A stretch of 64,000 bases of DNA, taken from positions 1 to 64,000 of the forward strand of contig VRMN01000003.1 in assembly GCA_008690995.1 (NCBI GenBank), read 5' to 3'. This document shows, piece by piece, positions 20,409 through 54,937 of this stretch. Source of the stretch: Porphyridium purpureum (Eukaryota). The position numbers and the translations under genes are program-made. The number at the start of each line of letters is the position of its first letter. Within the stretch, counting starts at the first letter, position 1. Under the pieces are notes generated by a model. It saw only the letters and a program-made list of their open reading frames with translations, was not told the DNA's origin and made no database searches.

Positions 20409-20493
20409 TGTTATCCGTTCGACCCCAGTCACCTAGAACGGTTCGGTTAATCCGAAACCGGTAAGCCGTTAAACCGGTAGACCGTTTAACCGT

Positions 20494-20608
20494 TTCTAGA
20501 AGCTTCTAGAGGTTCCAGAACCTTCTAGACGCGCGCAGAAATGCCAATGGTTTGCATTGTCATTTCTCTTGGCGCCTTGCTGTCCCTGGCGGAAGTAAGG
20601 GTATAAAA
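20494..20608 (+). promoter_or_regulatory. Heat-shock-element array and TATA box in the Gypsy A LTR
   Basis: TTCtaGAAgcTTCtaGAGgTTCcaGAAccTTCtaGAC at 20494-20530; TATAAAA at 20602-20608. Present in all four family A LTRs. Confidence 0.75.
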
Positions 20609-21277
20609 AGGCGACGCGCCTGCCCGGACTAGCCGGTCAGGTCTTGCTCGGAGAGAGAAGAGGTAAGAAGAAGACGCAGAGAGTAAAAAAAGGCACAGCA
20701 TTGGTAACATTTGGTATCATCGCTGGTTACCTGGGGTTGCTCTAAGGTTCTCTTAGAGTTTCTCTGGGGTTGCCTGGGTGGGAGAGTCTGCGGGTAAGGG
20801 GGTTCGAGTAAGTCGATCCGGAGGGTGCGACGGGTGGAAGCGGGTCTCAGTCTTGGCTGTACGATAGGCCTAGGCCTTGACGGCGGACTCGCTCTCTGCC
20901 TTAGCACGTATTAGTAGGCAAGAGCCGTAACGGTCAGCCTTCACTAGGATTCATCTTAGTGTCGCACGACCACCTTTGCGAAGGTAGGCGCCGAACACCT
21001 CCATACAAGATCGCATCTATAATCCCCGCCCCAGTGCAAAGGCCCGGGCCGCTCCCCATCCAGCGCAACAGAGGAGGATTGCTGTGTGCTTTGTTGTGTG
21101 TGCGTGAGCGGATTGCTGTGCGTGTGTGTGAGTGAGAGGACTGCTTCGTGTGTCGGTTCGTGTTCGTGAGGGCAATCGAAGCCCGTTCGTGTTGCGCGCA
21201 GCTGTTCGAGAGTGTGAGCAGCGGAGACTCGCTGTTTGTGTCGTTGTCGTCGTTGAGTGTGCTTGTTTCCAGAAAGC

Positions 21278-22084
21278 ATGGAGATTGATTCGGAGACGCT
21301 GGGACCACGTGGCCCGAAGGAGGCCCGTCTGATGAGGTTCGACGGGAAGAGGGACCTTCTGGTTGTGAAGACGTGGTTGTTCCAGGCGAGAAAGAAGATC
21401 TTGGGCCGGCTGTTGGAGAGCATCCACCCGGACGATTTGGAGAAACGTCTGCTTGCGGAGAGGCGTGCTGTGGACTTGGCATCAGACTACTTCGAGGGAG
21501 AGGCGCTTCATTGGTGGGTTCTAAACTGCGAACGCTACCCGCAGGAGATCCCCACGACGTGGAATGATTTTGCTGCCCTCGTCAGTGCTCGGTTCACGCC
21601 GCAGGATTCGATCAGGCGTGCAAGGGACAAGTTGACGCGTCTTTCGCAGAAAGGCCCGGCCCATGCGTATGTGGCGGCTTTTCAGGACGCGGCACTTGTG
21701 ATTCCGGACTTGTCGGACGCAGAAATGATGGACCGCTTTGTGAGGGGTCTGAAGCCCGAGGTCCGCTTGGAAGTGTACAAGCGAGGAGTGAGTACGTTCG
21801 CGGAGGCTGCGCAGGTGGCGGTGGTCGTGGATGACGCCATTCATGCGACTCGCGGCGTGCGTGATTCAAGTGTGAGGACGCCATTTTTCGGTCGCGCAGC
21901 GCAGGAAGGACCCGTCCCGATGGAGCTGGGACATGTGCAGGGTCAGAGGCGTGCTCGTACCGAGGTCATGTGCTGGAATTGTGGAAAGCTGGGACACATC
22001 GCCAGGAAGTGTCCCGAGGCAAGGAAGACTATCCAGCAGCTGGAAGGAGACTCGCCGGAGTCAAAAAACGAGGAGCTCGAGTAG
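21278..22084 (+). CDS. gag: Gypsy A1 Gag
   Basis: Capsid-like motifs (GEALHWW, LSQKG..AY...F, FVRGLK), PMEL, zinc knuckle CWNCGKLGHIARKC. Confidence 0.93.
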   Translation: MEIDSETLGPRGPKEARLMRFDGKRDLLVVKTWLFQARKKILGRLLESIHPDDLEKRLLAERRAVDLASDYFEGEALHWWVLNCERYPQEIPTTWNDFAALVSARFTPQDSIRRARDKLTRLSQKGPAHAYVAAFQDAALVIPDLSDAEMMDRFVRGLKPEVRLEVYKRGVSTFAEAAQVAVVVDDAIHATRGVRDSSVRTPFFGRAAQEGPVPMELGHVQGQRRARTEVMCWNCGKLGHIARKCPEARKTIQQLEGDSPESKNEELE

Positions 22085-25000
22085 AGAGGTTCCTCGGACA
22101 GTCAGAGGGAAAGGAGGCTCGCAGACGTTACGAGACCTCTAGGGGCGGCAATGAAGACCGCTGTGGTGGCCTTGGTAAGCCAAGGTCTGGCTGTCCGACA
22201 CCTTGTGGGCGAAACTCGAGCGCAAATCAGCCCGTGATCAAGGAACTTGGAGGAATGGGAGCTGCCATGCTTCTTCGAGTTCGAGGAAAAGTGCACAAGT
22301 CCGACGGAGAGGCCACGTTTTTGATCGACAGTGGCGCGACGGACAACTTTATGAGCGTGGACTTTGTGCTGAAATCCGACGGCCTGAAGCAGAAGGCGTC
22401 GTGGAAGAGAGATCATGTGACCCTGGCAGACGGGTCTGTATTGGAGACAGCCGGAGAAGTTTCCAATGTCAAGTTTACACTGAGCGATGGGTACTCAGGA
22501 ACCGCTAACTTTGCCATTTGCCGGATCGCGGGACAAGACGCAATTCTGGGCATGGAGTGGCTGAAGCGGGAGAACCCAGTGATTGATTGGCAGTCTGGCA
22601 TGTTGGCCTACGGAGAGAAGAGGGCCTGGAGCATGACGCAGATGCTGGTGCCGCGGAAAGAGCTCCGTCGGCTGTTGAAGAGTCAGGAGGTAGAAGAGTG
22701 CTACCTCGGCGTGCTGAAAGGAAGGGAAGAGCCCTGTTCAGTGGAGCGCAAAGAAGCTGACTCTGTGAAGAAGATGCTCAATGATTTCGAAAATCTGTTC
22801 GAGGAGCCGCGAGGGCTGCCTGAGAGCCGAACAGTGGAGCATGTGATTAGGCTGAAAGATGAAAAGCCTGTGAGAGTGGGCAGGGTCTACCGACTGAGCC
22901 CTGCGGAGTTGAAAGTCCTCCGAGAGACTTTGGATGACTTGCTGGACAAAGGATTCGTCCAGCCGAGTCAGAGCCCGTTTGGAGCACCCGTGCTGCTCGT
23001 GAAGAAGAAAGACGGCAGCATGAGGATGTGCGTCGATTATCGGGCGTTGAACGACGCAACTGTGAAGGACCGGTATCCGTTGCCAAACATGGATGAGTTG
23101 CTGGATCGACTGGGCGCAGCTCATTGTTTTTCAAAGTTGGATTTGGCATCGGGATACCACCAGTTGCGTGTTCGGAGAGAGGACGTGCCGAAGACCGCGT
23201 TCCAGACCAGGTACGGACAGTTCGAGTTCCGTGTGATGCCGTTTGGTCTTTGCAACGCGCCGGCAACATTTCAGAGGGCCATGAACGAGCTGTTTGCAGA
23301 TCTGCTGGACAAGACCGTCATTGTCTACTTGGACGATATTTTGGTCTTTACCAAGGATAGGCAGTCGCATGCTGAGGTCCTGAAGGAAGTGTTGTCGCGC
23401 TTGCAAAAGGCGGGGTATCGTTTGAAGCGCAAGAAGTGCAGCTTCTTCGTTTCTGAAGTCGAATACCTGGGGAACATTGTGGGAAACGGTTGCGTGAAGA
23501 TGGATCCACGGAAGGTGGAAGCTTTGAGAGATTGGCCAGTGCCAAAGACGGTGACAGAGTTGAGATCCTTTTTGGGAATGACAAACTGGTTTCGCAGGTT
23601 TGTCAAAGGATACTCTACCGTCGTGGCGCCGCTGACTTCGCTGTTGCAGAACGCAAAGTCGAAGAAGCAGCTGATCGAACTGGGAGATGAAGGCAAGTCG
23701 GCCTTCGAGAAGATTGTGGGGATGTTGACGGAAGCGCCGGTGTTGGCCTTGCCAGACCCTGAAAAGCCATTTGAGGCGTACACGGACCGCTCTGAAGTCG
23801 CGGTGGGGGGATGGCTGGCACAGGAAGGCAGACCGGTCGCGTTTACGTCAAGGAAGCTGCTGGACCGAGAGACCAGGTACAGCAGTTATGAAGGTGAGCT
23901 CATGGCCGTCATTCACTGTCTGCGAGAGTTTCGACCTTATCTATACGGAGCAAAGTTTGTGCTGCATACAGATCATGAGGCGTTGAAACATTTGATGACG
24001 CAGAAGGAGCTGAATGGCCGGCAAGCACGGTGGCTGGACTTTTTAGCCGAGTTTGATATCATAATCGACTATGTGAAGGGAAAGTCGAACGTGGTAGCCG
24101 ATGCTTTGTCGAGGAAGCCAGAGCTGCACGCGCTAGAGTACCAGGTTCGATGTGAGGAATTTGGTACGAGTTTCCAAGCATTCGTGGGTTCGTACTCGAG
24201 TGACCCAGACTTTGGTACTTTGATGGGTAACTTACCGACCCACCAGGGTTTTCGAACGGAAGCTGGGCTCTTGTATTTGAGGAATCGCGTTTGCGTGCCG
24301 AGGAAATTCAGAGAGCGTGTCATGCAGCTCCACCACGATATCCCGACAGCAGGGCACCGTGGAGCGGACACGACGTATGCATCTTTGATCACTCGCTTCT
24401 ACTGGCCAAAGATGAAGCGAGACGTGAGCCGTTTTGTGAAGACTTGTCATGCATGCCAAGTGACAAAGTCAGAGAATCGGTCGTTTGGAAAGCTGAAGCC
24501 CTTGTCGATCCCAGAAGGACCTTGGGTCGACATCTCGATGGACTTCGTGACGGAGCTGCCTCGGAGCGAAGGCAGCTGTGATGCAATCATGACTGTGGTG
24601 GATCGCTATTCGAAGATGGCGCTGTTTATCCCGACGCGCAAGGACTTGACAGCAAAGCGTTGCGCTGACTTGTTCGTGAAGCACGTCGTGAGCCGCTTCG
24701 GATACCCCAAGTCGATTGTATCGGACCGAGATCCGCTGTTTACGTCAACATTTTGGCAGCAGCTGAGCAAGCGGGTGGGCATGAAGTTGGCAATGTCTAC
24801 CGCCAACCACCCGCAGACAGATGGCCAAACTGAGCGAGTGAACCGCGTGATTCGGGAAATGCTCAAGTTAATGGCGACGAATAGTGGCTGGGTGCGAGAC
24901 TTGCCGTTGTACGAGTTTGCGTACAACTCTGCACCAAGCAGTGCCACTGGATTCGCGCCGTTCAAAGTGGTATATGGAAGGGATCCTTGGTTTCCACCGA

Positions 25001-25461
25001 GCGAAGGGTGGAGGCCTGCGCGCGACGGACAGACAAAGGACATGGCGGAGCACTGGTTTCGCCTGTGCAAAGTCCATGAAGAAGTCCGCGACAATTTGAT
25101 CGAAGCCCAGGGGAGAATGCAGAAGTTCTTCGATCGACGCAAGGATGCCCGGGAGTTTCAAGTTGGTGATCAAGTGTTGGTCACGGCGCCGCAACTGCGG
25201 CCGAACAAGAGTGATTTGGAGGCACCAAAGTTTCTTGGTCCGGTGCCTGTCATTGAGAAGGTAAGCTCGCATGCTTACCGAGTGGTTTTGCCTGAGGGTG
25301 TGGCTTGTCATGATGTTTTTCCGATCCAACATCTGAAGCCATACTATGGACGCGAAGACTACATGGCAGGGGAAAATGATGAAGAAGTACCCGACGAAAT
25401 GCCGGCGTCCGATTCTGAGCCAGACTTGATGAAAATTATCGAAGAGTCTGACTCTGAATGA
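22069..25461 (+). CDS. pol: Gypsy A1 Pol (PR-RT-RH-IN), in the -1 frame relative to gag
   Basis: LIDSGAT, YLDD, TDH, HHCC, DDE core, GPV motif; slippery A AAA AAC at 22063-22069. Confidence 0.95.
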   Translation, partial: RGARVERFLGQSEGKEARRRYETSRGGNEDRCGGLGKPRSGCPTPCGRNSSANQPVIKELGGMGAAMLLRVRGKVHKSDGEATFLIDSGATDNFMSVDFVLKSDGLKQKASWKRDHVTLADGSVLETAGEVSNVKFTLSDGYSGTANFAICRIAGQDAILGMEWLKRENPVIDWQSGMLAYGEKRAWSMTQMLVPRKELRRLLKSQEVEECYLGVLKGREEPCSVERKEADSVKKMLNDFENLFEEPRGLPESRTVEHVIRLKDEKPVRVGRVYRLSPAELKVLRETLDDLLDKGFVQPSQSPFGAPVLLVKKKDGSMRMCVDYRALNDATVKDRYPLPNMDELLDRLGAAHCFSKLDLASGYHQLRVRREDVPKTAFQTRYGQFEFRVMPFGLCNAPATFQRAMNELFADLLDKTVIVYLDDILVFTKDRQSHAEVLKEVLSRLQKAGYRLKRKKCSFFVSEVEYLGNIVGNGCVKMDPRKVEALRDWPVPKTVTELRSFLGMTNWFRRFVKGYSTVVAPLTSLLQNAKSKKQLIELGDEGKSAFEKIVGMLTEAPVLALPDPEKPFEAYTDRSEVAVGGWLAQEGRPVAFTSRKLLDRETRYSSYEGELMAVIHCLREFRPYLYGAKFVLHTDHEALKHLMTQKELNGRQARWLDFLAEFDIIIDYVKGKSNVVADALSRKPELHALEYQVRCEEFGTSFQAFVGSYSSDPDFGTLMGNLPTHQGFRTEAGLLYLRNRVCVPRKFRERVMQLHHDIPTAGHRGADTTYASLITRFYWPKMKRDVSRFVKTCHACQVTKSENRSFGKLKPLSIPEGPWVDISMDFVTELPRSEGSCDAIMTVVDRYSKMALFIPTRKDLTAKRCADLFVKHVVSRFGYPKSIVSDRDPLFTSTFWQQLSKRVGMKLAMSTANHPQTDGQTERVNRVIREMLKLMATNSGWVRDLPLYEFAYNSAPSSATGFAPFKVVYGRDPWFPPSEGWRPARDGQTKDMAEHWFRLCKVHEEVRDNLIEAQGRMQKFFDRRKDAREFQVGDQVLVTAPQLRPNKSDLEAPKFLGPVPVIEKVSSHAYRVVLPEGVACHDVFPIQHLKPYYGREDYMAGENDEEVPDEMPASDSEPDLMKIIEESDSE

Positions 25462-25881
25462 CTTGGGTATTGTGAGAAGTTTGCTAGGCAGAGGTTTTCT
25501 CCCGGAGCGCGGGTTCCTCGAGCCAAGAATGCAACTTAGTTTGAAGTCTCGCCGAGACGTCGAGCCAAGAGGGGGGGAGATGTTATCCGTTCGACCCCAG
25601 TCACCTAGAACGGTTCGGTTAATCCGAAACCGGTAAGCCGTTAAACCGGTAGACCGTTTAACCGTTTCTAGAAGCTTCTAGAGGTTCCAGAACCTTCTAG
25701 ACGCGCGCAGAAATGCCAATGGTTTGCATTGTCATTTCTCTTGGCGCCTTGCTGTCCCTGGCGGAAGTAAGGGTATAAAAAGGCGACGCGCCTGCCCGGA
25801 CTAGCCGGTCAGGTCTTGCTCGGAGAGAGAAGAGGTAAGAAGAAGACGCAGAGAGTAAAAAAAGGCACAGCATTGGTAACA

Positions 25882-26641
25882 TTCCACGTGTGGAAATCGT
25901 CTTTCTTATCTCTTGTGAGCCTTTCGGTCGATCCCACTTCGTACAGGTCAGTACCTGCCGGCGTGCGCGCCCGTCCACTTGCACCAAACTCGCTCAGCAT
26001 GGTGCCGATGTATCCATTCATGCTAACCAGCACAGTGGCTGTACTTCTGTCAAATGCAAAGCGCATACCCAGGTACTCGACAGTATCCCCCTGCTCTCTC
26101 TGCAGTCCTGGGTACCTGCGCTCGATTTCATCCAACACAATTTTCACCTCGCGCGCGGACGGAGCGAACACGATTATGTCGTCAACGTGTATTGCGAGCG
26201 ATACATTGCCGCGTCTGAATACGCACTCGTCGAATCGATTCTGCGAAAAGCGCAGTTCTTGCAACATCTTTTTTACCGTCAGGAACCACTGGCGCGCGGC
26301 CATGATTGTTCCGTACAGCGCCTTTTTCAAAACGCACACCAAGCCGCCATCGGAGCGCACGTAACGAAGATACTTGTCGTCTAGGCCACATAACACCCTC
26401 GTCAGGTACCTGTCCAACCTCACGTGTACCTTTGGACCATCAGGAGGCATTAGTGCATTCAAGAACGCACCGGGAAAGTCAGCCTTACCCACAGCGTACT
26501 TTGCGTTGGCTGCTATTGCTGCGAGCAATAACAGACTATCTGTGGCAACAGTCGGTGACGACTTCTTCGGGTACACTGCTGGATCCTGGTGATTGCCTCC
26601 CGCTACAACTCTGGCTTTGATTTTCTGGATCGATCCATCTG
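25882..26641 (-). pseudogene. pol: Copia pol fragment: RT core
   Basis: KIKARVVAGG, DFPGAFLNA, LKKALYG, DECVF, HVDD, YLGM. Confidence 0.93.
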
Positions 26642-29600
26642 TGTTATCCGTTCGACCCCAGTCACCTAGAACGGTTCGGTTAATCCGAAACCGGTAAGCC
26701 GTTAAACCGGTAGACCGTTTAACCGTTTCTAGAAGCTTCTAGAGGTTCCAGAAACTTCTAGACGCGCGCAGAAATGCCAATGATTTGCATTGTCATTTCT
26801 CTTGGCGCCTTGCTGTCCCTGGCGGAAGTAAGGGTATAAAAAGGCGACGCGCCTGCCCGGACTAGCCGGTCAGGTCTTGCTCGGAGACAGAAGAGGTAAG
26901 AAGAAGCAGAGTAAAAGGCACAGCATTGGTAACATTTGGTATCATCGCTGGTTACCTGGGGTTGCTCTAAGGTTCTCTTAGAGTTTCTCCGGGGTTGCCT
27001 GGGTGGGAGAGTCTGCGGGTAAGGGGGTTCGAGTAAGTCGATCCGGAGGGTGCGACGGGTGGAAGCGGGTCTCAGTCTTGGCTGTACAATAGGCCTAGGC
27101 CTTGACGGCGGACTCGCTCTCTGCCTTAGCACGTATTAGTAGGCAAGAGCCGTAACGGTCAGCCTTCACTAGGATTCATCCTAGTGTCGCACGACCACCT
27201 TTGCGAAGGTAGGCGCCGAACACTTCCATACAAGATCGCATCTATAATCCCCGCCCCAGTGCAAAGGCCCGGGCCGCTCCCCATCCAGCGCAACAGAGGA
27301 GGATTGCTGTGTGCTTTCTTGTGTGTGCGTGAGCGGATTGCTGTACGTGTGTGTGAGTGAGAGGACTGCTTCGTGTGTCGGTTTGTGTTCGTGAGGGCAA
27401 TCGAAGCCCGTTCGTGTTGCGCGCAGCTGTTCGAGAGTGTGAGCAGCGGAGACTCGCGGTTTGTGTCGTTGTCGTCGTTGAGTGTGCTTGTTTCCAGAAA
27501 GCATGGAGATTGATTCGGAGACGCTGGGACCACGTGGCCCGAAGGAGGCCCGTCTGATGAGGTTCGACGGGAAGAGGGACCTTCTGGTTGTGAAGACGTG
27601 GTTGTTCCAGGCGAGAAAGAAGATCTTGGGCCGGCTGTTGGAGAGCATCCACCCGGACGATTTGGAGAAACGTCTGCTTGCGGAGAGGCGTGCTGTGGAC
27701 CTGGCATCAGACTATTTCGAGGGAGAGGCGCTTCATTGGTGGGTTCTAAACTGCGAACGCTACCCGCAGGAGATCCCCACGACGTGGAATGATTTTGCTG
27801 CCCTCGTGAGTGCTCGGTTCACGCCGCAGGATTCGATCAGGCGTGCAAGGGACAAGTTGACGCGTCTTTCGCAGAAAGGCCCGGCCCATGCGTATGTGGC
27901 GGCTTTTCAGGACGCGGCACTTGTGATTCCGGACTTGTCGGACGCAGAAATGATGGACCGCTTTGTGAGGGGTCTGAAGCCCGAGGTCCGCCTGGAAGTT
28001 TACAAGCGAGGAGTGAGTACGTTTGCGGAGGCTGCGCAGGTGGCGGTGGTCGTGGACGACGCCATTCATGCGACCCGCGGCGTGCGTGATTCAAGTGTGA
28101 GGACGCCATTTTTCGGTCGTGCAGCGCAGGAAGGACCTGTCCCGATGGAGCTGGGACATGTGCAGGGTCAGAGGCGTGTTCGTACCGAGCTCAAATGCTG
28201 GAATTGTGGAAGGCCGGGGCACATCGCCAGGAAGTGTCCCGAGGCAAGGAAGACTATGCAGCAGCTGGAGGGAGACTCGCTGGAGTCAAAAAAACGAGGA
28301 GCTCGAGTAGAGAGGTTCCTCGGACAGTCAGAGGGAAAGGAGGCTCGCAGACGTTACGAGACCTCTAGGGGCGGCAATGGAGACCGCTGTGGTGGCCTTG
28401 GTAAGCCAAGGTCTGGCTGTCCGACGCCTTGTGGGCGAAACTCGAGCGCAAATCAGCCCGTGATCAAGGAACTTGGAGGAATGGGAGCTGCCATGCTTCT
28501 TCGAGTTCGAGGAAAAGTGCACAAGTCCGACGGAGAGGCCACGTTTTTGATTGACAGTGGCGCGACGGACAACTTTATGAGCGTGGACTTTGTGCAGAAA
28601 TCCGACGGCCTGAAGCGGAAGGCGTCGTGGAAGAGAGATCATGTGACCCTGGCAGACGGGTCTGTATTGGAGACAGCCGGAGAAGTCTCCAATGTCAAGT
28701 TTGAACTGAGCGATGGGTACTCAGGGGCCGCTAACTTTGCCATTTGCCGGATTGCGGGACAAGACGCAATCTTGGGCATGGAGTGGCTGAAGCGGGAGAA
28801 CCCAGTGATTGATTGGCAGTCTGGCATGTTGGCCTACGGAGAGAAGAAGGCCTGGAGCATGACGCAGATGCTGGTGCCACGGAAAGAGCTCCGTCGGCTG
28901 TTGAAGAGTCAAGAGGTAGAAGAGTGCTACCTCGGCGTGCTGAAAGGAAGGGAGGAGCCCTGTTCAGTGGAGCGCAAAGAAGCTGACTCTGTGAGAAAGA
29001 TGCTCAAGGATTTCGAAAATCTGTTCGAGGAGCCACGTGGGCTGCCTGAGAGCCGAACAGTGGAGCATGTGATTAGACTGAAAGATGAAAAGCCTGTGAG
29101 AGTGGGCAGGGTCTACCGACTGAGCCCTGCGGAGTTGAAAGTCCTCCGAGAGACTTTGGATGATTTGCTGGACAAAGGATTCGTCCAGCCGAGTCAGAGC
29201 CCGTTTGGAGCACCCGTGCTGTTCGTGAAGAAGAAAGACGGCAGCATGAGGATGTGTGTCGATTATCGGGCGTTGAACGACGCAACTGTGAAGGACCGGT
29301 ATCCGTTGCCAAACATGGATGAGTTGCTGGATCGACTGGGAGCAGCTCACTGTTTCTCAAAATTGGACTTGGCATCGGGATACCACCAGTTGCGTGTTCG
29401 GGGAGAGGACGTGCCGAAGACCGCGTTCCAGACCAGGTACGGACAGTTCGAGTTCCGTGTGATGCCGTTTGGTCTTTGCAACGCGCCGGCAACTTTTCAG
29501 AGGGCCATGAACGAGCTGTTTGCAGATCTGCTGGACAAGACCGTCATTGTCTACTTGGACGATATTTTGGTCTTTACCAAGGATAGGCAGTCGCATGCTG

Positions 29601-34649: not shown

Positions 34650-34898
34650 TCAAATGTCGCTCCCCGACTCACTTCCACCTGTCGCCTCATCGTCGTCTAC
34701 GGCCACCATCGTAGTGCTGCGCTCTTTCTTCTTTGCCCTCAGGGCTTTCTTCATCTCTTCAACTTCCTGGCGAAGAGTGACCACCACGTTTGGTTCAGTG
34801 CAGTCCGATTTGAAGTGGCCCATCCTCTGGCAATTGTAGCAGCGCACCCGGCTCACATCCACCTTGCGCTTCACGGGTTTGCTGCCGGAATGAGGTTC
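34650..34898 (-). pseudogene. gag: Copia gag 3' fragment with zinc knuckle and terminal TGA
   Basis: CYNCQRMGHFKSDC; joins in frame to 42152-43085 after removing the 4-bp TSD. Confidence 0.9.
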
Positions 34899-35089
34899 TG
34901 TCACGAACCGTGCTGGCCCAGGACACCGCGGCACACCCAACAGCAAGCCAAGCGGCACACGCACGCACACAAGCTGGACAATCCACGCAACCAAGAGGAA
35001 ACACAAGACACCCGCAGTCAACTGGACCTGCGGCAGGCAGGAAACCCGGAACCAACGACGCTCACGCACGCTGCTCACACGCGAACAGC

Positions 35090-35215
35090 CAAGAGCACCC
35101 ACACACGGGACCGACAGAACCAACCAAGAGCAGACACACGGGAAAGACACAGCCAACCAAGAGCACACGCACGGAGCAGGCACAGCCAACCAAAAGCACA
35201 CACACGGAAGACGCG
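35090..35215. repeat. About four degenerate 33-35-bp tandem units in the chromovirus LTR (also at +6193)
   Basis: Units start CAAGAGCA/CAAAAGCA at 35090, 35125, 35158 and 35191. Confidence 0.8.
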
Positions 35216-35486
35216 CGTAACGGGGGAACCAGGCGTCCGCTGCCCAACCGGGATCCCGTTCGGCCACACCTTACGGTGATCCGGGACCCGGGGAGGCGTT
35301 GTGGGCAGCCGGGGTTAGCCGGAGGAGGTTGCCTCACCTTTCGGCTTCAAACGGCCTATCACTCCTTTATCCGCCCCCGCCCACGTACCACCCCCGGATC
35401 CGCTTCCGCACAAGGACCGTCTAACGACGCCTTACCCCAGGGCATCCGCGAACCTTCCCCGTTAAACCCCCCGCTCGCTCGCTCGC

Positions 35487-35552
35487 GCTGTACTCCCGCC
35501 GTACCCCCGCCGTACCCCCGCTGTACTCCCGCTGTACCCCCCCTGTACCCCC
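35487..35552. repeat. Six 11-bp tandem units (GCYGTACYCCC) in the chromovirus LTR (also at +6193)
   Basis: Read directly from the sequence. Confidence 0.85.
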
Positions 35553-36197
35553 CCTCCCTCAACAGGTACCCAAGGCCCGAACACGCTTCCTTGAATACAC
35601 CTGTTTTTACTTAGATCCCCCTTAACCCTTCTGTCTCCCGACCCCCCTCTCCCCCCCCCTTGGTTGCCGACCCGCGCGTCCTTTTTATACCCATCGCGAC
35701 CACTGTACCCCCGAGGTACAGTGCCTTGCTGTCGCTGAGTCTAGAACCTTCCAGAAGGTTCCAGCCACCTCCTGGCTGTACACCCATTCCATACTGGGTG
35801 GTCATCGCGCGTCTGGTCCCTAAGGGAAGGGGCCTTCAGGCCTACCACGCGCCCCCTTGTACACCTACAGTACAGTGGGTCCGGCGCGACCAGGTATCCG
35901 GCCACGGACTATGGCTATTTTTAATCATTTCCTTAACACACGGGCTACTCCCGTGACATCCCACCCTCTCCGCTTCCCAATGTCAGGTATCACATGGTCC
36001 GAAGCTTCCGGAGAGTCACTTCATACTTACAGCACATGCCAATGCTTGACGCGTCCGGCATCCACGTCTCAAGCTCGATGTCGCCCGTGCACTGGCCATC
36101 GGCTTCGTGTGCCCGTCTTGGCATCGTAAGTACTCGAAGAGGACGTCCGTCCACGTGGCCCTCCACCCGGCCGGTGTGTCCGAGGTTCCGCCACTGG

Positions 36198-39100: not shown

Positions 39101-39977
39101 CCAGCACTCCTCGGGCGACCAGCCCTTGCACCATCTCGCGCTCAGCCTGCGTCACTGCAGGAGCCCTGCGACGTAACCTTGCCCTGGGGAGATCCTCCAA
39201 ACGCTCTGCCTTGATGCGGATCGTATGCTCGACGAGGTCTGTCTTACCCAGCTCCGGCCGGAAGAGAACCCAAAACTTCTTCAAGAGCCCTTTCATCTCC
39301 CTGCTTTGCGCTTCATCCAAATGCTCAAAGATCTTGGCTTCAATGGTAGTACAAACAGCCTCGTTGTGACCCGCATACTTTTCTTCGAGGGCCTGGATTC
39401 GCTTCTTCACTTCTGCTCCATCAGCAATATAGTGCACCGCCTCCAACTGCACCGTGGGTTTGGCTTCCTCATACATCGATCCCAGGATCCTGTGTCTTTC
39501 CAGGCATGTATGACACACGGCTTCCTGTGCACTGGAAATTTCTCGGTTGACAAAAGTAATCCATCCGCCCGAGCGTAGGCCCAGACCCTTTCCCGGGATC
39601 AAGTAACTGACATGCTTGGCAAGAAAACGCATTCCCAGTATGAGATCAGGTCCGAGGTTCCTCATAATCCGGACGCTTTCCTCCGACTGAATTCCCTCAC
39701 CAACCCAAATTATGGCAACGCTCTCCTCGGCCTCCCCCAACACCTCATTGGTTGGGCCCAATGCCTGTGTGTGGGTCTTTCTGCGAAGAAGCCCAAGACG
39801 GTCAGCCAAATCGTCGTTCATCCACGTGGATAAAGCCCCCGTATCAACCAGCGCAGTAGTCCGAACCTTCAGACCTCCCCATTCAGCCTGTACGTCTATC
39901 CACGGATACGAGCCCAGTGGGACTGCCTCCGACAATTCTTCAGATTCCGGGGGGCCTTCGCATCCCCCCGCTACTCG
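36198..39977 (-). CDS. pol: Chromovirus Pol (PR-RT-RH-IN-chromodomain), in the -1 frame relative to gag
   Basis: LVDTGA, YIDD, TDAS, HHCC, DDE core, WVGP; C-terminal WAIEAI...EYRVRWRG...DTWEPE chromodomain. Confidence 0.95.
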   Translation of the reverse strand, partial: RVAGGCEGPPESEELSEAVPLGSYPWIDVQAEWGGLKVRTTALVDTGALSTWMNDDLADRLGLLRRKTHTQALGPTNEVLGEAEESVAIIWVGEGIQSEESVRIMRNLGPDLILGMRFLAKHVSYLIPGKGLGLRSGGWITFVNREISSAQEAVCHTCLERHRILGSMYEEAKPTVQLEAVHYIADGAEVKKRIQALEEKYAGHNEAVCTTIEAKIFEHLDEAQSREMKGLLKKFWVLFRPELGKTDLVEHTIRIKAERLEDLPRARLRRRAPAVTQAEREMVQGLVARGVLEPSLSDVSSQNVMVKKPNGGWRLTTDFRTLNDATVKDRYPIPDVGEMIDWFASWKFKSILDLKDGFFQVPLAPESRPLTAIITPDGLFQYCRLPQGCCNSPSTFQRLTNTVLGPLRYLNALVYIDDLAIGTKTFEEHLQALQRVLEQFCAAGLVFSLSKCRFGALRVEFLGHDIGLDGIRPSQRKTEAVRAWQEPRNAKELQQFIGLVGWFRNFIEGFEEVCRPLRDAMKGLQINAKGSKWKKYPMNSADWQARFGEPQSQAFLSLREALSDPETGDRKVLAAYDPEAEHALWTDASSTGLGAMLTQREGTGDRPVAFYSRLLRPAEQNYTVTEKECLAAIAAMEHFRHYLYGKRFVLMTDHSALSWLMRQKEPQGRIARWILKVQDFDFQVQHHPGKANTVADALSRPAVRMNGEEARVASESNKSETLNNTSEIELIGLNAVEDEEVKQVVRLAEMLQEEIQGPASGADGGMVPVTSAGVRELLLHTGEHTEANDAYTPPSMEEIVAAYADDTDIQEQLKNLKADKPEYTYPEYTVDEDGVIWAMLRDESRVVIPNALVQRVLHVYHSTPLSGHLGIEKTAKRVSDARYWWTGWTEDVRQFVLCCHECFSRKTKAPPRRARMQVYRAVRRFEIVSIDVLSITPTTTRGHSKVVIMVDAFTKWVRAHAVKDETAATLARVFLDGWGCDFGPPESLLSDRGPGFVADILSKMCENLGVGRMLTTAYHPQTNGVVERFNQTVCQMLSAYVCANGKDWDRWLPVMVYAYNTARHASTKMSPFELLYGEPARDWASMAGPRAVEQADDLAKKLAACHAIANKNAKIAQDRYTKNYDRRVREHDFKPGDVVYVWAPPSGEGRKLKKPWVGPLSILRMVGVHAVLCSEGHPDGKLVHVNRLARAHKDLIEASGSQVLQGEDGSWAIEAIAGDRVVGGCREYRVRWRGLGKRGDTWEPELALPPMMVAAYRDA

Positions 39978-40912
39978 TTTTTTGTCTGGCGTTCTTCGGT
40001 CCTCTGCCTCTTATTTTTCTCCCACTTTGGGCACTCCATGCGAACGTGGCCCCGCTCCTGGCACTCCCAGCACTTGACCAGTCGCTTGCGAGGATTCAAC
40101 CCAGGGAGCCCAGCTTCATCAAAGTTACCCAAATGGTGCACGCGCTCGGGCTTCCTCACTGCCCTTACACCGTACTGCGAGCCAAGCGCACCAAAGGTTC
40201 CATACTGACCAGCCTCCTCCAACAGAGCAGTCTTCATCAAGGTCCAGTTTCCCTGTATGCCATACGTCCTGGCCTGACGACGCAGCTCGGAGTTTTTCGG
40301 AAGCGCCAACGTAAGTGCCTCAATCTTGCGAGTGTCAGATTCTCCCAGAGCCGTGCAGCGATCCTCCAGAACCTCCACGAATTTCTTCAGGTCCTGGCCA
40401 ATAACATACTCAACATCGTGATGCTCTGCACGAAGGGCGCGCTCGTGCTCCTTGTTGTAGAAGTAAGCAGCCACTGCCGCCCATGCCTCTTGTGCTGTTG
40501 CACCGTGCAACTCCGACAGGACCTCGTAGCATTTCCTCAGCCCCACCCCGCGGAAAACTGCATCAATCGAGGATACATGTTGGTCTGGATCCTCTCCCAT
40601 GTCACGCAGGCGATTGAACCAGACCATCTTGGCGGTCAGAAAAAGTGGATCACCGGCCTTCTCAATCTGCACGCCCGCGTCACAAATAGCCTGGCCCAGT
40701 TGAGAACGAATCTTGCCGCGCACAATGGCGGGGACACCCTCTTCCTTCTGCTGAACACTCACAACCCCATGACTTCCTATCTCGTCACCACGAGCCGTGG
40801 GCATTGTCGGCTCTGGTGCCAGCGCGCCAGCCTGTGCACGTTCCAGCTCGCTCGAGGACGCGTGCTCTCGCGCATCGTCTGAGCCCATCGTCGTCTTCCT
40901 GCCACGCACCAT
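39971..40912 (-). CDS. gag: Chromovirus Gag
   Basis: Lies between the 5' LTR and pol; zinc knuckle CWECQERGHVRMEC. Confidence 0.88.
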   Translation of the reverse strand: MVRGRKTTMGSDDAREHASSSELERAQAGALAPEPTMPTARGDEIGSHGVVSVQQKEEGVPAIVRGKIRSQLGQAICDAGVQIEKAGDPLFLTAKMVWFNRLRDMGEDPDQHVSSIDAVFRGVGLRKCYEVLSELHGATAQEAWAAVAAYFYNKEHERALRAEHHDVEYVIGQDLKKFVEVLEDRCTALGESDTRKIEALTLALPKNSELRRQARTYGIQGNWTLMKTALLEEAGQYGTFGALGSQYGVRAVRKPERVHHLGNFDEAGLPGLNPRKRLVKCWECQERGHVRMECPKWEKNKRQRTEERQTKNE

Positions 40913-41874
40913 TTCTGCGACTTCGTTCCTGCTCCGAATCCTCTCTCGCAATCCTTCACTCGGTGACCGTACGTATCAGAATGTGGACACAAGTTTGCCC
41001 AAGATCAAGACCGATCTCACGTCCACACCCCACCCTCTCTCGCACCAACGTCAGATGCCACGCAATCCTGGAAGATAATTTCCGGAAATTATGTCACGAA
41101 CCGTGCTGGCCCAGGACACCGCGGCACACCCAACAGCAAGCCAAGCGGCACACGCACGCACACAAGCTGGACAATCCACGCAACCAAGAGGAAACACAAG
41201 ACACCCGCAGTCAACTGGACCTGCGGCAGGCAGGAAACCCGGAACCAACGACGCTCACGCACGCTGCTCACACGCGAACAGCCAAGAGCACCCACACACG
41301 GGACCGACAGAACCAACCAAGAGCAGACACACGGGAAAGACACAGCCAACCAAGAGCACACGCACGGAGCAGGCACAGCCAACCAAAAGCACACACACGG
41401 AAGACGCGCGTAACGGGGGAACCAGGCGTCCGCTGCCCAACCGGGATCCCGTTCGGCCACACCTTACGGTGATCCGGGACCCGGGGAGGCGTTGTGGGCA
41501 GCCGGGGTTAGCCGGAGGAGGTTGCCTCACCTTTCGGCTTCAAACGGCCTATCACTCCTTTATCCGCCCCCGCCCACGTACCACCCCCGGATCCGCTTCC
41601 GCACAAGGACCGTCTAACGACGCCTTACCCCAGGGCATCCGCGAACCTTCCCCGTTAAACCCCCCGCTCGCTCGCTCGCGCTGTACTCCCGCCGTACCCC
41701 CGCCGTACCCCCGCTGTACTCCCGCTGTACCCCCCCTGTACCCCCCCTCCCTCAACAGGTACCCAAGGCCCGAACACGCTTCCTTGAATACACCTGTTTT
41801 TACTTAGATCCCCCTTAACCCTTCTGTCTCCCGACCCCCCTCTCCCCCCCCCTTGGTTGCCGACCCGCGCGTCC

Positions 41875-41954
41875 TTTTTATACCCATCGCGACCACTGTA
41901 CCCCCGAGGTACAGTGCCTTGCTGTCGCTGAGTCTAGAACCTTCCAGAAGGTTC
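41875..41954 (-). promoter_or_regulatory. Heat-shock element and TATA box in the chromovirus 5' LTR
   Basis: GAAccTTCcaGAAggTTC at 41937-41954 (four perfect alternating units); minus-strand TATAAAAA at 41875-41882. Confidence 0.75.
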
Positions 41955-42151
41955 CAGCCACCTCCTGGCTGTACACCCATTCCATACTGGGTGGTCATCG
42001 CGCGTCTGGTCCCTAAGGGAAGGGGCCTTCAGGCCTACCACGCGCCCCCTTGTACACCTACAGTACAGTGGGTCCGGCGCGACCAGGTATCCGGCCACGG
42101 ACTATGGCTATTTTTAATCATTTCCTTAACACACGGGCTACTCCCGTGACA

Positions 42152-43085
42152 GTTCATCCTCATCGTTGCTTTCGTCTTCTTCACGTCCTGCCACAAAAGT
42201 TGTACCGACCCGTGGGACCGCTCCAACTGGAACGACTTTATAGTTTGAAACTGCTCGCACAATCTCATTCACTGTGTCCAGTACCGCGCCCGTGTTTTGC
42301 AGGTGCACTATGGTGTTTCTGTGCGCTCCCGAAATCTCGAGCTTGCGCGCGAAGTCGGCAGCCAGCCTCTTCGCGTCTCCTGTGTGCTCGCCAACGGCAT
42401 CCATGGCTCGCACTGTCGCGTCGAACCTGGCTCGAAAATGCACGAGCGACTCACCCGGTTCCATTGCCAGCTTGTGGAACATTTCCGCCGCATACAGCTG
42501 ATTCTGAACAGCGCTGTCAGATCCGAGCGTCATGTGCACTGCAAGCACCTGCTTGGCGAGCTCCAGGGGATCGTTGGCAGAAGCTGCCAGCTCATCGAAT
42601 GAGCCCATGCGCTTCAGTGCGTCTACAGACGCTTCACTCAGCTGCCCCACGATCACGGCAAACACCTTCGGTTTGGCCTCTTCGAGCTCCCGGACTTTCT
42701 TATGGTAGCTCTGCATGACTATGCGCACGTTCTCGGCCTTGACGAGAGCTGCGACATCTTGAGGGAGGCCCGACAATTCTGCCGCTGCGAATGCCTCTGC
42801 AGATGGAGGATTTGCTGTTGGGTATTCCATTCCATGCTCGCTCAGATCGAAGATACGTCCAACTTCTCCAAAGTGGAGCCTGACGTAGTTCCCCAACTCT
42901 TTGAACCAAGCGACCACAGTGTAGGCGGGGGTGGATCCGCGCGCCGTGTACTTTAACAACGGCAGTTCCGCCATCGCCCCCTTCTCCCGAGCGGTGGTCA
43001 GGTGGTGCCCTTTTCCGCGGCCACGCGATCCTCCTCGCGCCGCCGCTCCCCTGGCTCCTCCCGCTGCACCGCCTCTCGTTGACAT
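42152..43085 (-). pseudogene. gag: Copia gag 5' fragment
   Basis: ATG 13 nt after the 5' LTR; RGG-rich N-terminus; capsid-like LAMEPGESLVHFRARF. Confidence 0.88.
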
Positions 43086-43098
43086 GATTATACGTTTA

Positions 43099-43405
43099 AG
43101 TTCGGAAACCTCGCTCCGCTGATGGACAACCTCCAATCCAACGACCAAGTTTATCAAGTTCTAAACGTATAACTTTTCCAACTCGCACTCCCTACCGAAG
43201 CCCACCGCGCTCGCGCTCAGCACCGAGCTTCGCGCGCGACTTATAAGCCAACGGACCCATTCTCCTACGCTCCTACCGCCGGCCAACAACCGCAGCCGAG
43301 AGTTTCCCTTCTCAAGTCACGTCCCTTATCAGTGATCAGCTTAACGGCTTAACGACTAAAAGTTAACCACTAACCGTTAACCGCCATGCTCCACACATCT
43401 TAACA
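43099..43405 (-). repeat. Copia 5' LTR
   Basis: Direct repeat of 19411-19717; ends in CT, not CA, on the element strand. Confidence 0.95.
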
Positions 43406-43738: not shown

Positions 43739-44206
43739 TTACTGGATGTCAATCACGCGAGTCGCAGACGACTCGACGTACTCACGCTTCGGCAGCTCAA
43801 TTGAGACAATGCCGTCCTTTGCAGAGGCTGCAATCTTGTCGACCATAATATCATTCCCAAGGTCCATGCTCTGCTCGAACGCGCGCGAAGAAAAGCTGTG
43901 CATGGGGCCATCCGCTCGGCCTTCCGAACTCTCTAATTTACCGCTCACCTTGAGAACATTGTCCTTGACCTCCAGCTTAATGTTTTCCTTTGGAATTCCA
44001 GGCGCTTCAATGTTCACGACGAACTTGTCGTCAAATTCCTGCATCTCGCTCGGCGGTCCGACGAGCGTGGGGTCGAACATGCGGTTCCACTCGTTGCGCG
44101 CGCTACCAAAGGGAGCATCCATAATCTTGTCAATCAAGTCCCACGTGTTTCCTCGGCTGCCACGCAGCGAGGCCAGCGGTCCAAGTCCACGAGCACGAAG
44201 TGCCAT
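43739..44206 (-). CDS. HSP20: Small heat-shock protein (Hsp20/alpha-crystallin) 1
   Basis: EAPGIPKENIKLEVKDNVLKVSG...IAASAKDGIVSIELPK...IDIQ. Confidence 0.93.
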   Translation of the reverse strand: MALRARGLGPLASLRGSRGNTWDLIDKIMDAPFGSARNEWNRMFDPTLVGPPSEMQEFDDKFVVNIEAPGIPKENIKLEVKDNVLKVSGKLESSEGRADGPMHSFSSRAFEQSMDLGNDIMVDKIAASAKDGIVSIELPKREYVESSATRVIDIQ

Positions 44207-44332
44207 CTTTCCAGACTTTTTGTCTGCTCCAACGCTTACTCTCGCTCAGCTCCGTACCTGTTCGCTGGCTCTTCCTCCACCTTTCCATTGTCACTCATAC
44301 AATCTCCGACCTTTGTTGGTGCAGAGCGACCA

Positions 44333-44470
44333 ATTTATACCCGTGTCGAATCGCCATCTCAGGCCGCAGCAGCAGAGGCGCAAGCAGTCGCCCGAGCCTT
44401 CCGGAAAATTCTCGAGGCAGATTCGCCATGCCGCAGCCACTTGCACGGAGCCATCCGGAAAATTCTCGAG
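44333..44470 (-). promoter_or_regulatory. Hsp20-1 promoter: TATA box plus a duplicated heat-shock element
   Basis: 23-bp direct repeat GAGCC(T/A)TCCGGAAAATTCTCGAG at 44394-44416 and 44448-44470; minus-strand TATAAAT near 44333-44339. Confidence 0.8.
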
Positions 44471-44981
44471 CCTCTCTGGCCAGAACTGTACTTCTGCGCT
44501 GTACTTGCTGCTAGAACGCGGTTCAGTGCGCTCACGATATGTACACTTGTAGCCATGTGAAACAGCGGTTTTCGTAGACGAATCCGCCGCATGCGAGAAC
44601 TTGGCCGGGCGAGCTGCAAAGTTGCGATCCCACTGGGTTTCAACATGAATCTGGACTGTGGGTCTCTTACACGCGCTTGACAACCAAGCCCTCCCAAGCG
44701 GAACCTTCTCCGCATCATCTGCACCACTGAAGAGCATTTTCCACATATACAAAAGGATAACAGGTACACAACTTTATGTTTTTTTCTTTCTCTACAAGCT
44801 AAGGACACAGATCAAGACGCTGGCATCGACCTCACTGATCACAAAGAGCCGCGTACCAGCCTAATCGGACTATGGCATCTCCAGCAGGACTCGCGCAACG
44901 CCAAAGGACTGTTGACAAACGTGGTCAGGATAATGTCCATACGATGCACTTCTGTCACCAATTCTTCCTGGCGCTCTCTGC

Positions 44982-45473
44982 CTACTTAATTTCAATCAGG
45001 CGAGTGGCAGGCTCTTCGCGGCCGTGCTTCGGGAGTTCTATCGTAACAATTCCGTCCTTGGCTGACGCCGAAATCTTGTCAATGTCAACGTCATTACCAA
45101 GCGTCAGAGAACGATGGAAGGAACGCGCCACGTAGCCATGCGTAACTTTCTCGCCCTTTCCGTCGCCATTCTCGCCATCTTCCGTGACGTTCTCTTCCAT
45201 TCCGCCGCTGACCTTCAACACATTGTCCTTCACTTCCAGCTGAATTTTCTCCTTCGGAATGCCCGGCGCCTCAATGGTCATCACATACTTGTCGTCAAAC
45301 TCACTGAGAAGGCTTGGGGGACTTGCGCGCACAGGCTCCAGAAGACTGTTCCAGTCGTCGCGTGTCGTTCCAAAAGGCGCGCCCAGCAAACGGTCAATCA
45401 GTTCAAAGGTGTTTGCGCGACCCGTCGGGTACGCCAAATGCGAAGAAACTGCTGGACGCGTCCTCAACGCCAT
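44982..45473 (-). CDS. HSP20: Small heat-shock protein 2
   Basis: Close paralogue of Hsp20-1; starts MALR. Confidence 0.93.
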   Translation of the reverse strand: MALRTRPAVSSHLAYPTGRANTFELIDRLLGAPFGTTRDDWNSLLEPVRASPPSLLSEFDDKYVMTIEAPGIPKEKIQLEVKDNVLKVSGGMEENVTEDGENGDGKGEKVTHGYVARSFHRSLTLGNDVDIDKISASAKDGIVTIELPKHGREEPATRLIEIK

Positions 45474-46059
45474 TGGTGAGCTTGCACGCTTCGCCACACT
45501 CTTCGCAGCTTTTTCCTTGTTCCTCTTTGTCGACTTCGTCGCTAATCTCTTCACTACACTTGGTCGAATGTGGTACACTCTCATCCTGACGAAGATGGCC
45601 ACCCTCCATCGCGCGCCGGCTTCGACATGCACGTGCCGGCGCCCCTTTTTATGCTGTATTTCATCAAGACATTTGTAAGACAGGTGCACGTGTCTCTAGA
45701 CCTTTCGCAAATCTTCTCGTCTCGCTCCGACACAACGTTCGTTGCCGGCGTACGCAAAAAGCAGGCTTCCTTCATGAAAGTGTGTACACTTCCACATGTT
45801 TCCACAAAAATCTGGAATGGGCACGGAAGGCTCCGGCTTCTCGCATCGAATGACGATGCCTTGCTTGCTCCGGCGTGGCATGTCGTGGCATGGCGTGCTC
45901 GCACGGTTATAAAAGCCGGCGCCTGTCCACGCAGTTACCCGCTCCGGCGCGGAGTATCTGCAAGGCGAAGGTGAGTGGTGTGGAGAACAAAGTGTCCAGG
46001 GAACAAGGAGTCAGAGCATTTGCTTGCATTGATTGAGACTACCAGTGAAGCACACAATC

Positions 46060-46749
46060 ATGGTGGAGAGTGACGGCATGGCGTTCACTTTTGGAGTGGC
46101 CCCAACGATTCGGGTGTATGGCGCGAAACCGTCGTACATGCAGACTTCGCCGCAGAATGCGCCTCGCAAGGAAGGAGACGGCAACGGCAACGGCAACGTC
46201 GCCATACGTACCCAGCCGCCAGCGCAATCCCGGGCTATGGCGCGTCCGAACAGGCAAATGTTCGCACCATTGTCGCCATTTGCACCGTTGAGTCCATTTG
46301 ATCTCATGGACGCTGCTGAGAGGCTCATGAACACGCCGTTCGAACAGTGGGACCGTGCCATGGGGCTTGCGCCTGCACAGCAGCGTGCTTGGAGCCCGAC
46401 GTATAAGTTTGAGGAGTTTGATGATAAGTACGTCCTCTACGTGGAAGCACCGGGTATTCCGAAGGAGAAGGTGGTGCTTGAAGTCAAGGACAGCATGTTG
46501 CTGATCTCTGGAAACTTGGAAGAGAAGACGACGAAGCCGTCTGACGGAGGTGAACCGGCCGGGCAGAAGGGTGCTGTCTTTGAATCCTACACGAAAAGGT
46601 CCTTCAAGAGGAGTCTGGTGCTGAGTGAGGATATCCTCGTTGATCAGATTTCGGCAGCTGCAAAAGATGGCGTGATTTCTGTCGTGTTACCGAAGCGCCC
46701 GAAGCCGGAGGAACCGAAGCCCAAGCGCATTGAAATTGCCTCGCATTGA
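46060..46749 (+). CDS. HSP20: Small heat-shock protein 3, possibly plastid-targeted; start uncertain (46060, 46078 or 46237)
   Basis: Alpha-crystallin domain; N-terminal extension containing MAFTFG; TATAAAA near 45907. Confidence 0.9.
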   Translation: MVESDGMAFTFGVAPTIRVYGAKPSYMQTSPQNAPRKEGDGNGNGNVAIRTQPPAQSRAMARPNRQMFAPLSPFAPLSPFDLMDAAERLMNTPFEQWDRAMGLAPAQQRAWSPTYKFEEFDDKYVLYVEAPGIPKEKVVLEVKDSMLLISGNLEEKTTKPSDGGEPAGQKGAVFESYTKRSFKRSLVLSEDILVDQISAAAKDGVISVVLPKRPKPEEPKPKRIEIASH

Positions 46750-54845: not shown

Positions 54846-54937
54846 GGAACGCGATGGGGGTGAGAGCGTTTGCGGATGAATGTCGCATGAGCTATCAAAA
54901 ATAATTTAAGTACGAAATCGGAAACAAAGATACTTTC

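What the first reader, a model, noticed from the sequence alone, without database searches (positions are those of the whole stretch)
20409..46749. Two unrelated Gypsy families carry heat-shock-element promoters and sit next to an Hsp20 cluster
Seen: all four family A LTRs have two blocks of alternating TTC/GAA units (e.g. 20494-20530) about 70 bp upstream of a TATA box. Both chromovirus LTRs have four perfect units (41937-41954, 35744-35761) about 55 bp upstream of theirs. The nest ends 333 bp from the stop of Hsp20-1, which has its own duplicated HSE and is transcribed toward, and co-directionally with, the Copia. Known: inverted nGAAn repeats bind HSF, and HSE-bearing LTRs drive the heat-activated Arabidopsis Copia element ONSEN. 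Inference: heat-induced Gypsy elements land in chromatin opened by the same stress, making a stress-coupled hotspot. Six HSE-bearing LTRs may also affect Hsp20 expression.
Basis: partly seen in the sequence, partly recalled or inferred. Interest (0 to 1): 0.85.

Follow-up and report, generated by a model that had tools for sequence, protein, structure and literature searches.

The report
Heat-switch jumping genes in red alga
Two distantly related, recently active jumping-gene families of a single-celled red alga carry textbook heat-shock switches in their promoters and are likely turned on by heat, as already shown in plants and a flatworm, but their place beside small heat-shock genes likely comes from piling into an older transposon, not from homing to heat-opened DNA.

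Summary
Observation confirmed. The window is Porphyridium purpureum-type DNA. Of 13 perfect three-unit heat-shock elements (HSEs) in 64 kb (0.6-0.9 expected), 12 lie in the six LTRs of Gypsy families A and B and one in the Hsp20-1 promoter. A and B share 29% Pol identity, so independent gain is likely. All three Gypsy copies sit inside an older Copia that has no HSE; only the Copia touches the Hsp20 flank. Elsewhere in the species, 0 of 28 listed A/B copies lie within 25 genes of an Hsp20/Hsp70 locus, so targeting to heat-shock genes is unsupported. Two results favour something more: a second version of the locus carries a separate LTR insertion about 90 bp upstream of the Hsp20-1 HSEs, and 4 of 13 B copies lie next to an A copy (other Gypsy loci 1 of 33). 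Heat induction is untested. HSE-driven LTR elements are proven in Arabidopsis (ONSEN) and Macrostomum (Gypsy); my searches found no red-algal case. The scan noted HSE-bearing transposon promoters on other DNA (a yeast copia, a flatworm Polinton). New member of a known kind.

The parts
19411..43405 (-). Copia element C, about 5.8 kb of its own DNA, split by three Gypsy insertions; 5' LTR 43099-43405, 3' LTR 19411-19717; 5-bp target-site duplication; no HSE in its LTR
   Evidence: empty site seen in runs X2, X8, X17
20409..25881 (+). Gypsy family A copy 1; identical 301-bp LTRs; tRNA-Met-type primer site; gag (to 22084) and pol (to 25461) overlap at an A AAA AAC heptamer (22063-22069); target-site duplication has one mismatch
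   Evidence: the primer and slippery-site motifs are recognised from recall
20494..20530 (+). Two HSE blocks of the family A LTR; repeated at 25666-25702, 26727-26763, 31892-31928; TATA at 20602, 25774, 26835, 32000
26642..32099 (+). Gypsy family A copy 2; identical 293-bp LTRs; perfect 5-bp target-site duplication; one extra A fuses gag and pol in frame (27482-31687)
34899..42151 (-). Gypsy family B; identical 1060-bp LTRs (41092-42151, 34899-35958); 4-bp target-site duplication; gag and pol overlap at an A AAA AAC heptamer (39977-39983); chromodomain at about 36228-36347
41932..41954 (-). HSE of the family B 5' LTR (four perfect units and one near unit); repeated at 35739-35761; TATA at 41882 and 35689
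43739..44206 (-). Hsp20-1, 155 aa
   Evidence: Pfam PF00011
44394..44470 (-). Duplicated HSE of Hsp20-1 (44394-44416 with a perfect core, 44453-44470 weaker); TATA at 44339
   Evidence: marked as a perfect-type HSE in the supplement of PMC8966773
44557..44561 (.). Site, empty in the window, where a second version of the locus carries another LTR element (5-bp duplication, tRNA-Met-type primer site, pointing away from Hsp20-1)
   Evidence: run X2; published upstream sequence of the second Hsp20-17.1 gene
44982..45584 (-). Hsp20-2, 200 aa, head to head with Hsp20-3
46060..46749 (+). Hsp20-3, 229 aa

Best explanation
Two distantly related Gypsy families of Porphyridium carry canonical heat-shock elements 54-71 nt upstream of their LTR TATA boxes, likely gained independently and predicted to let the host's heat-shock factor switch them on, and the three copies here inserted into an older, HSE-less Copia, likely because it was harmless DNA in a gene-dense genome rather than because Hsp20 chromatin drew them in. 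Steps. Shown: the motifs, their place in U3, the nest, the younger LTRs of the Gypsy copies, the empty sites. Inferred: HSF trimers bind the blocks under heat or other proteotoxic stress and drive full-length RNA from the 5' LTR; Gag-Pol is made by a -1 frameshift; new copies survive mainly inside or beside other elements. The Copia landed first, in a gap of about 1.5 kb between two convergent stop codons.
For: Motif excess and confinement. Same layout as the host's Hsp20-1 promoter, HSE 54-59 nt before a GGGTATAAA box. The 12 differing columns between the A1 and A2 LTRs spare every core unit of the blocks; one falls in a spacer. Pol identity 29% and separate tree positions; LTR likeness confined to the TATA context. 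P. purpureum has one HSF (Table 3 of PMC4827209). Precedent with mutation test in Gypsy LTRs (PMC12801592). Both families are young and multicopy: identical LTR pairs; 64 and 16 proteins in their 90% clusters; many different flanks at the A LTR ends. Most Copia copies lack these insertions (joint 34894-42152 in X1 and X2). No pull to heat-shock genes: 0 of 28 listed copies within 25 accession steps of 10 Hsp20/Hsp70 loci, 1.4 expected, nearest 69. Gypsy loci cluster generally: control families 6 of 33 within 10 steps of an A copy, 1.0 expected.
Against: No expression, binding or mobilisation data under heat. The heat-inducible sHSP promoter of the red alga C. merolae has no typical HSE (PMC4206486), and Hsp20-2/-3 here have only a near-match, so red-algal heat induction need not run through such sites. 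A second independent LTR insertion beside Hsp20-1 is more than a purely passive model predicts. B lies next to A more often than other Gypsy loci do (4 of 13 against 1 of 33 within two steps, Fisher p 0.018; within five steps 4 of 13 against 3 of 33, p 0.087). The neighbour test saw only 15 of 64 A proteins, uses accession order as a stand-in for position, and covers only Hsp20 and Hsp70 among HSF targets.
Confidence: 0.6

Rival explanations
1. Stress-coupled hotspot: heat induces A and B and opens the Hsp20 cluster at the same time, so new copies land there.
For: Two independent LTR insertions, on two versions of the locus, lie 333 nt below and about 350 nt above the one Hsp20 gene with a perfect HSE; run X2 shows no other insertion along a 15.7-kb contig (44557-60260). 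Heat-shock promoters are P-element hotspots in Drosophila (abstract of PMC1592238).
Against: Neither primary insertion carries a perfect HSE; A and B hit Copia DNA 1.6-23 kb from Hsp20-1. 0 of 28 other copies near Hsp20/Hsp70. Cluster gaps make up 596 of 1861 untranscribed bases in the stretch X2 covers, so one insertion falls there with probability 0.32 if it falls in that stretch at all. [quoted passage not shown]
Confidence: 0.15
2. HSE-bearing elements are each other's landing pads: heat would open HSF-bound LTRs and de-repress neighbouring transposon DNA just when A and B cDNA is made, so the two families co-nest across the genome.
For: 4 of 13 B copies lie within two accession steps of one of only 15 listed A copies, 0.08 expected; the chromodomain-bearing sister family of B (57% identity) does so in 0 of 12.
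Against: Small numbers and a test chosen after seeing the lists; B against its sister family gives p 0.096. Co-timed young bursts into the same tolerated regions, or chromodomain targeting of silenced copies, give the same pattern. In this window B inserted into Copia DNA, not into an A LTR.
Confidence: 0.13
3. The motifs are real but do not drive heat induction: the elements are silenced, or the sites serve basal or non-heat (oxidative, proteotoxic) activation.
For: No data show induction. HSE-like motifs in Drosophila DNA transposons failed qRT-PCR validation (as discussed in PMC12801592); C. merolae sHSP induction lacks typical HSEs.
Against: Perfect three- and four-unit arrays at promoter-proximal spacing in two families, mirroring the host Hsp20-1 promoter; in Brassicaceae such arrays correlate with heat response (abstract of PMC5059998).
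Confidence: 0.12

Closest known systems
HSE-containing Ty3/Gypsy families of Macrostomum lignano (Mag, CsRN1, Gmr1/Osvaldo clades; PMC12801592)
   Same: Several unrelated Gypsy families of one genome each carry canonical HSEs upstream of the LTR TATA box.
   Different: There, induction above 250-fold and HSE dependence were shown and only two solo LTRs lay near mildly induced host genes; here nothing is measured, the host is a red alga, and the copies are nested beside an Hsp20 cluster.
ONSEN/ATCOPIA78, COPIA37, TERESTRA, ROMANIAT5 of Brassicaceae (PMC5059998, PMC8501995)
   Same: HSE arrays in the LTR, recurrent gain in separate families, duplication of the HSE block (family A has two).
   Different: Those are Copia; here the Copia has no HSE and the Gypsy families do. 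ONSEN prefers H2A.Z/H3K27me3-rich exons; these copies sit in another transposon.
TCN3 and TCN12 of Cryptococcus (PMC12810828)
   Same: LTR retrotransposons of a microbial eukaryote with putative HSEs in the LTR.
   Different: Mobilisation at 37 C was measured there; HSE function is untested in both.
[quoted passage not shown]
   Same: Independent insertions beside a heat-shock gene, one just upstream of its HSEs.
   Different: Two events against more than 200; LTR elements, not P elements; no control gene set beyond 15.7 kb of one run.

Membership tests
HSF-driven heat-activated LTR retrotransposon (ONSEN/Macrostomum type) | Canonical HSE (three or more inverted nGAAn units) in U3 upstream of the TATA box | tested here: met
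HSF-driven heat-activated LTR retrotransposon (ONSEN/Macrostomum type) | Host encodes a heat-shock factor | not tested
   One HSF listed for P. purpureum in Table 3 of PMC4827209; not checked by a sequence search
HSF-driven heat-activated LTR retrotransposon (ONSEN/Macrostomum type) | Transcripts rise under heat and depend on the HSE | not testable with these tools
   All runs offered were contigs with no treatment on record
Ty3/Gypsy superfamily (A and B) | Domain order protease, RT, RNase H, integrase between TG...CA LTRs with target-site duplication | tested here: met
Chromovirus (family B) | Chromodomain at the integrase C-terminus | tested here: met
   PF00385, E 2e-6, residues 1221-1260
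Chromovirus (family B) | RT-RNase H groups with the chromovirus clade | tested here: inconclusive
   Best trees place B with arthropod-type Gypsy (SH-aLRT 95-96), apart from plant/fungal/vertebrate chromovirus-type hits; AU test of B plus that clade p 0.144, not rejected; no named reference elements in the set
Chromovirus (family A) | RT-RNase H groups with the chromovirus clade | tested here: met
   In a group with plant, green-algal, fungal and frog hits, five of them chromodomain-bearing; SH-aLRT 94 and 100; clade named from the hits' labels and domains
Chromovirus (family A) | Chromodomain | tested here: not met
   No PF00385 hit to E 0.1; 6% of chromoviruses lack one (PMC6317226)
Insertion hotspot at heat-shock genes | More insertions at heat-shock genes than at control genes | tested here: inconclusive
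   Two events at Hsp20-1; 0 of 28 A/B copies near Hsp20/Hsp70 loci; low power

The most novel reading that the evidence does not exclude
Heat-shock factor both fires the two Gypsy families and marks their landing sites: HSF-bound LTRs and heat-shock genes become open targets at the moment the cDNA is made, so A and B build self-reinforcing, heat-inducible transposon islands across the red-algal genome, of which this Hsp20-side nest is one.
Probability: 0.13. Interest if true: 0.78.

Novelty: new member of a known kind. Interest (0 to 1): 0.42.

Why it matters
If induction holds, convergent capture of the heat-shock response by LTR retrotransposons extends from land plants, a flatworm and (putatively) fungi to red algae, in the two families that appear to be among the most expanded young Gypsy groups of a cultured biotechnology alga; heat in culture would then be a predictable source of genome change, and the 300-bp A LTR a candidate compact inducible promoter. 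The organism also offers a ready test of an open question, whether stress-activated elements insert where the same stress opens chromatin: HSE-bearing and HSE-less families coexist, and filled and empty versions of the Hsp20 locus exist for comparison.

Tried and rejected
No whole genome was held, so copies could not be mapped directly; a scan of metagenome contigs for the A HSE block found nothing. Expression from contigs: run X9 (recorded as DNA, but its contigs stop at gene ends) has a 5982-nt contig over the inside of B and no cover over most of the Copia; run X17 (RNA by guess) has deep Hsp20-2/-3 contigs and only short pieces of A and B. Treatments are unknown and contig depth cannot rank expression, so neither is used for or against induction. 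Hsp20-1 contigs of X9 and X11 both stop at 43601, short of the Copia LTR, while X8 and X17 run through the empty site: no verdict on read-through. I first read the X2 insertion as a different strain's allele; one search showed the same junction and substitutions in the species' published second Hsp20-17.1 gene, so it is a second version of the locus (allele or duplicate, unresolved). Promoter-module swap between A and B: only the TATA context is alike (19 of 21 columns), and it recurs in Hsp20-1 and, by eye, in the fourth element's LTR; rejected as evidence. A1's frameshift as damage: rejected, none of the listed annotated family A proteins shows A2's in-frame junction. Hairpins after the frameshift and stop sites fold no better than shuffles. 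Assembly artefact: unlikely, every junction has a target-site duplication and the insertion-free joins exist in other runs. LTR ends of A, B or C upstream of other red-algal Hsp20 genes: 0 hits for six 12-mers in the published 1.5-kb promoters, though line breaks can hide matches. The bacterial promoter scan does not apply. Earlier notes on this genome or on the A LTR: none.
Full report
Host. The window is gene-dense, intron-poor DNA of 55% GC. The Pol proteins of both Gypsy families are 98-99% identical to proteins annotated in the red alga Porphyridium purpureum, and the three Hsp20 genes match that species' published Hsp20 set. No genome was held for direct search.

Anatomy. A Copia (19411-43405, minus strand, LTRs differing at 3 of 307 positions, perfect 5-bp target-site duplication) is split by three Gypsy insertions: A1 (20409-25881), A2 (26642-32099) and B (34899-42151). 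Each Gypsy has identical LTR pairs (301, 293, 1060 bp) and its own duplication (A1 with one mismatch, B 4 bp). A1 and A2 differ at 123 of 4871 internal positions, so they are separate insertions from different source copies. The Copia is therefore the first and likely the oldest event. Other Copia copies lack B and A2, and the Copia site is empty in runs X2, X8 and X17. The empty site lies between the stop of a carbohydrate-binding-module ORF (18255) and the stop of Hsp20-1, 1488 bp apart; gaps between transcribed stretches to the right are 66-985 bp (not quite like for like).

The motifs. Thirteen perfect three-unit HSEs occur in the window, against 0.56-0.91 expected; eight are in A LTRs, four in B LTRs, one at Hsp20-1. 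Shuffles of the A and B LTRs never matched the observed counts (0 of 1000 in each of four tests), and the Copia LTR has none. Spacing to the TATA box is 71 nt in A, 54 in B and 54-59 in Hsp20-1. The Hsp20-1 element is already marked in the supplement of PMC8966773.

Are A and B unrelated? Their polyproteins are 29% identical over 1175 columns. In RT-RNase H trees of 58 and 27 rows (quick searches; rows picked from the hits: 56 and 25 of about 240), A falls with plant, green-algal, fungal and frog chromovirus-type sequences though it lacks a chromodomain; B has a chromodomain but falls in a Porphyridium-rich group next to arthropod elements; an AU test does not reject B joining the chromoviruses (p 0.144). 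The LTRs share only the TATA context. Independent gain of the HSE is the simplest reading; it is inferred, since relatives' LTRs could not be fetched.

Copy number and activity. The 90% protein clusters hold 64 (A) and 16 (B) members. In run X1, depth at single positions is roughly 70-90 times the flank for A, 13-18 for B and 4-6 for the Copia (contig depth is only a rough guide). Both families keep an A AAA AAC heptamer at the gag-pol overlap (motif recalled), and the listed family A proteins follow A1's two-frame layout, not A2's fusion.

Test of the hotspot. Protein accessions of the species' annotation run in gene order where I could check (Hsp20 triplet, Hsp70 coordinates), so I used them as a stand-in for position. 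Of 15 listed A proteins (of 64) and 13 B proteins (14 with accessions listed, one dropped as this locus), none lies within 25 steps of the 10 Hsp20/Hsp70 loci; 1.4 would be expected by chance; the nearest is 69 steps away. Other HSF targets were not available. The same data show clustering of elements with elements: 4 of 13 B within two steps of an A (0.08 expected), and for five other Gypsy families 1, 3 and 6 of 33 loci within 2, 5 and 10 steps (0.2, 0.5, 1.0 expected). B's excess over the controls is marginal (p 0.018 at two steps, 0.087 at five) and the test was chosen after seeing the lists.

Result against my reading. A second version of the locus lacks the nest but has another LTR element at 44557-44561, about 90 bp upstream of the distal Hsp20-1 HSE. 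The published upstream sequence of the species' second Hsp20-17.1 gene shows the same junction and substitutions, a tRNA-Met-type primer site, and no HSE marked by the authors within the LTR part (read by eye). Runs X8 and X17 have contigs empty at both sites. So Hsp20-1 was hit twice, independently, within 1.15 kb, while X2 shows no further insertion over the next 15.7 kb. Given one insertion in that stretch, the chance of the cluster's gaps is 0.32; the unconditional chance is lower but I could not measure it.

Mechanism. Most likely (0.6): HSF binds the LTR blocks under heat and drives A and B (inferred from motif, layout and precedent), and copies accumulate in tolerated DNA, here an older Copia (inferred from anatomy and neighbour counts). 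Rivals: heat-opened Hsp20 hotspot (0.15), HSE-bearing elements as mutual landing pads (0.13), motifs not heat-functional (0.12). An effect of the nest on Hsp20 is untested; the gene has its own HSEs, and the nearest LTR HSE is 2.4 kb away beyond its 3' end.

What is known. PMC12801592 (abstract; second half of Results and discussion) shows independent HSE gain by several Gypsy families in Macrostomum, with mutation tests, and calls itself the second validated case after ONSEN. PMC5059998 (abstract) shows recurrent gain in Brassicaceae Copia. PMC12810828 (passages) reports putative HSEs in Cryptococcus TCN3/TCN12. PMC8501995 (passages) gives ONSEN's insertion preference. PMC1592238 and PMC2793543 (abstracts) give the Drosophila hotspot and its limits. 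PMC4206486 (one passage) notes no typical HSE in the C. merolae sHSP promoter; PMC8966773 (passages, section 16, supplementary tables and promoter sheet parts 3-4) finds HSE-like motifs in red-algal Hsp20 promoters; PMC4827209 (passages with Table 3) lists one HSF; PMC8464122 (one supplement table) gave Hsp70 accessions; PMC6317226 and PMC5445492 (passages) gave classification and priming features. Five searches (listings only) showed no paper on HSE-bearing or heat-activated LTR elements in Porphyridium or other red algae; subscription papers and bioRxiv supplements were not searchable. The scan's own notes record HSE-rich promoters in a yeast copia and a flatworm Polinton, unchecked here.

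Verdict. A real and clean sequence feature, a new lineage for a known strategy, with an unproven and partly contradicted hotspot claim. Interest 0.42.

Noticed in passing
window 43087-43098 and 43162-43173 (minus strand): The Copia has no recognisable tRNA primer site; the 11 bases after its 5' LTR are complementary to LTR positions 234-244 (1 of 2000 shuffles reach 11; fold z -2.55). This suggests Tf1-like self-priming, proposed before for TAR/Houba Copia (PMC6317226), but the partner lies about 70 nt past the TATA-like box, not clearly at the RNA's 5' end.
   Followed up: partly
window 34650-34652 (minus strand): Copia gag and pol are in frame, split by a TGA followed by CGG, a read-through context by recall. 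Contigs of X1 and X2 cover the codon with no difference listed there, so it looks like a family trait. The pol N-terminal half has no Pfam integrase hit and resembles diatom proteins in the Atlas.
   Followed up: partly
window 41076-41091 (minus strand): Family B has a perfect 16-nt palindrome where the primer site should be, with no tRNA-like or LTR-complementary match; reminiscent of the palindromic hairpin site of fungal GalEa elements (PMC5445492).
   Followed up: partly
window 44557-60260: In run X2 this 15.7-kb contig (Hsp20-2, Hsp20-3, ABC transporter, tRNA-Thr, kinase) has depth 217 against 54-69 for its neighbours and begins at the second LTR insertion: possibly a segmental amplification; contig depth is not a copy number.
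   Followed up: no
window 44557-44561: The element inserted here on the second version of the locus ends two bases outside the usual TG...CA, as if integrated without end trimming.
   Followed up: no
window 20409-20493 and 43340-43405: The U3 ends of family A and of the Copia share repeated CCGTT/GTTAA-type words (13 of 14 bases alike, p 0.05), MYB-like sites by recall.
   Followed up: partly
window 28288: The extra A that fuses gag and pol in A2 lies in a homopolymer run and may be a mutation or an assembly error.
   Followed up: partly
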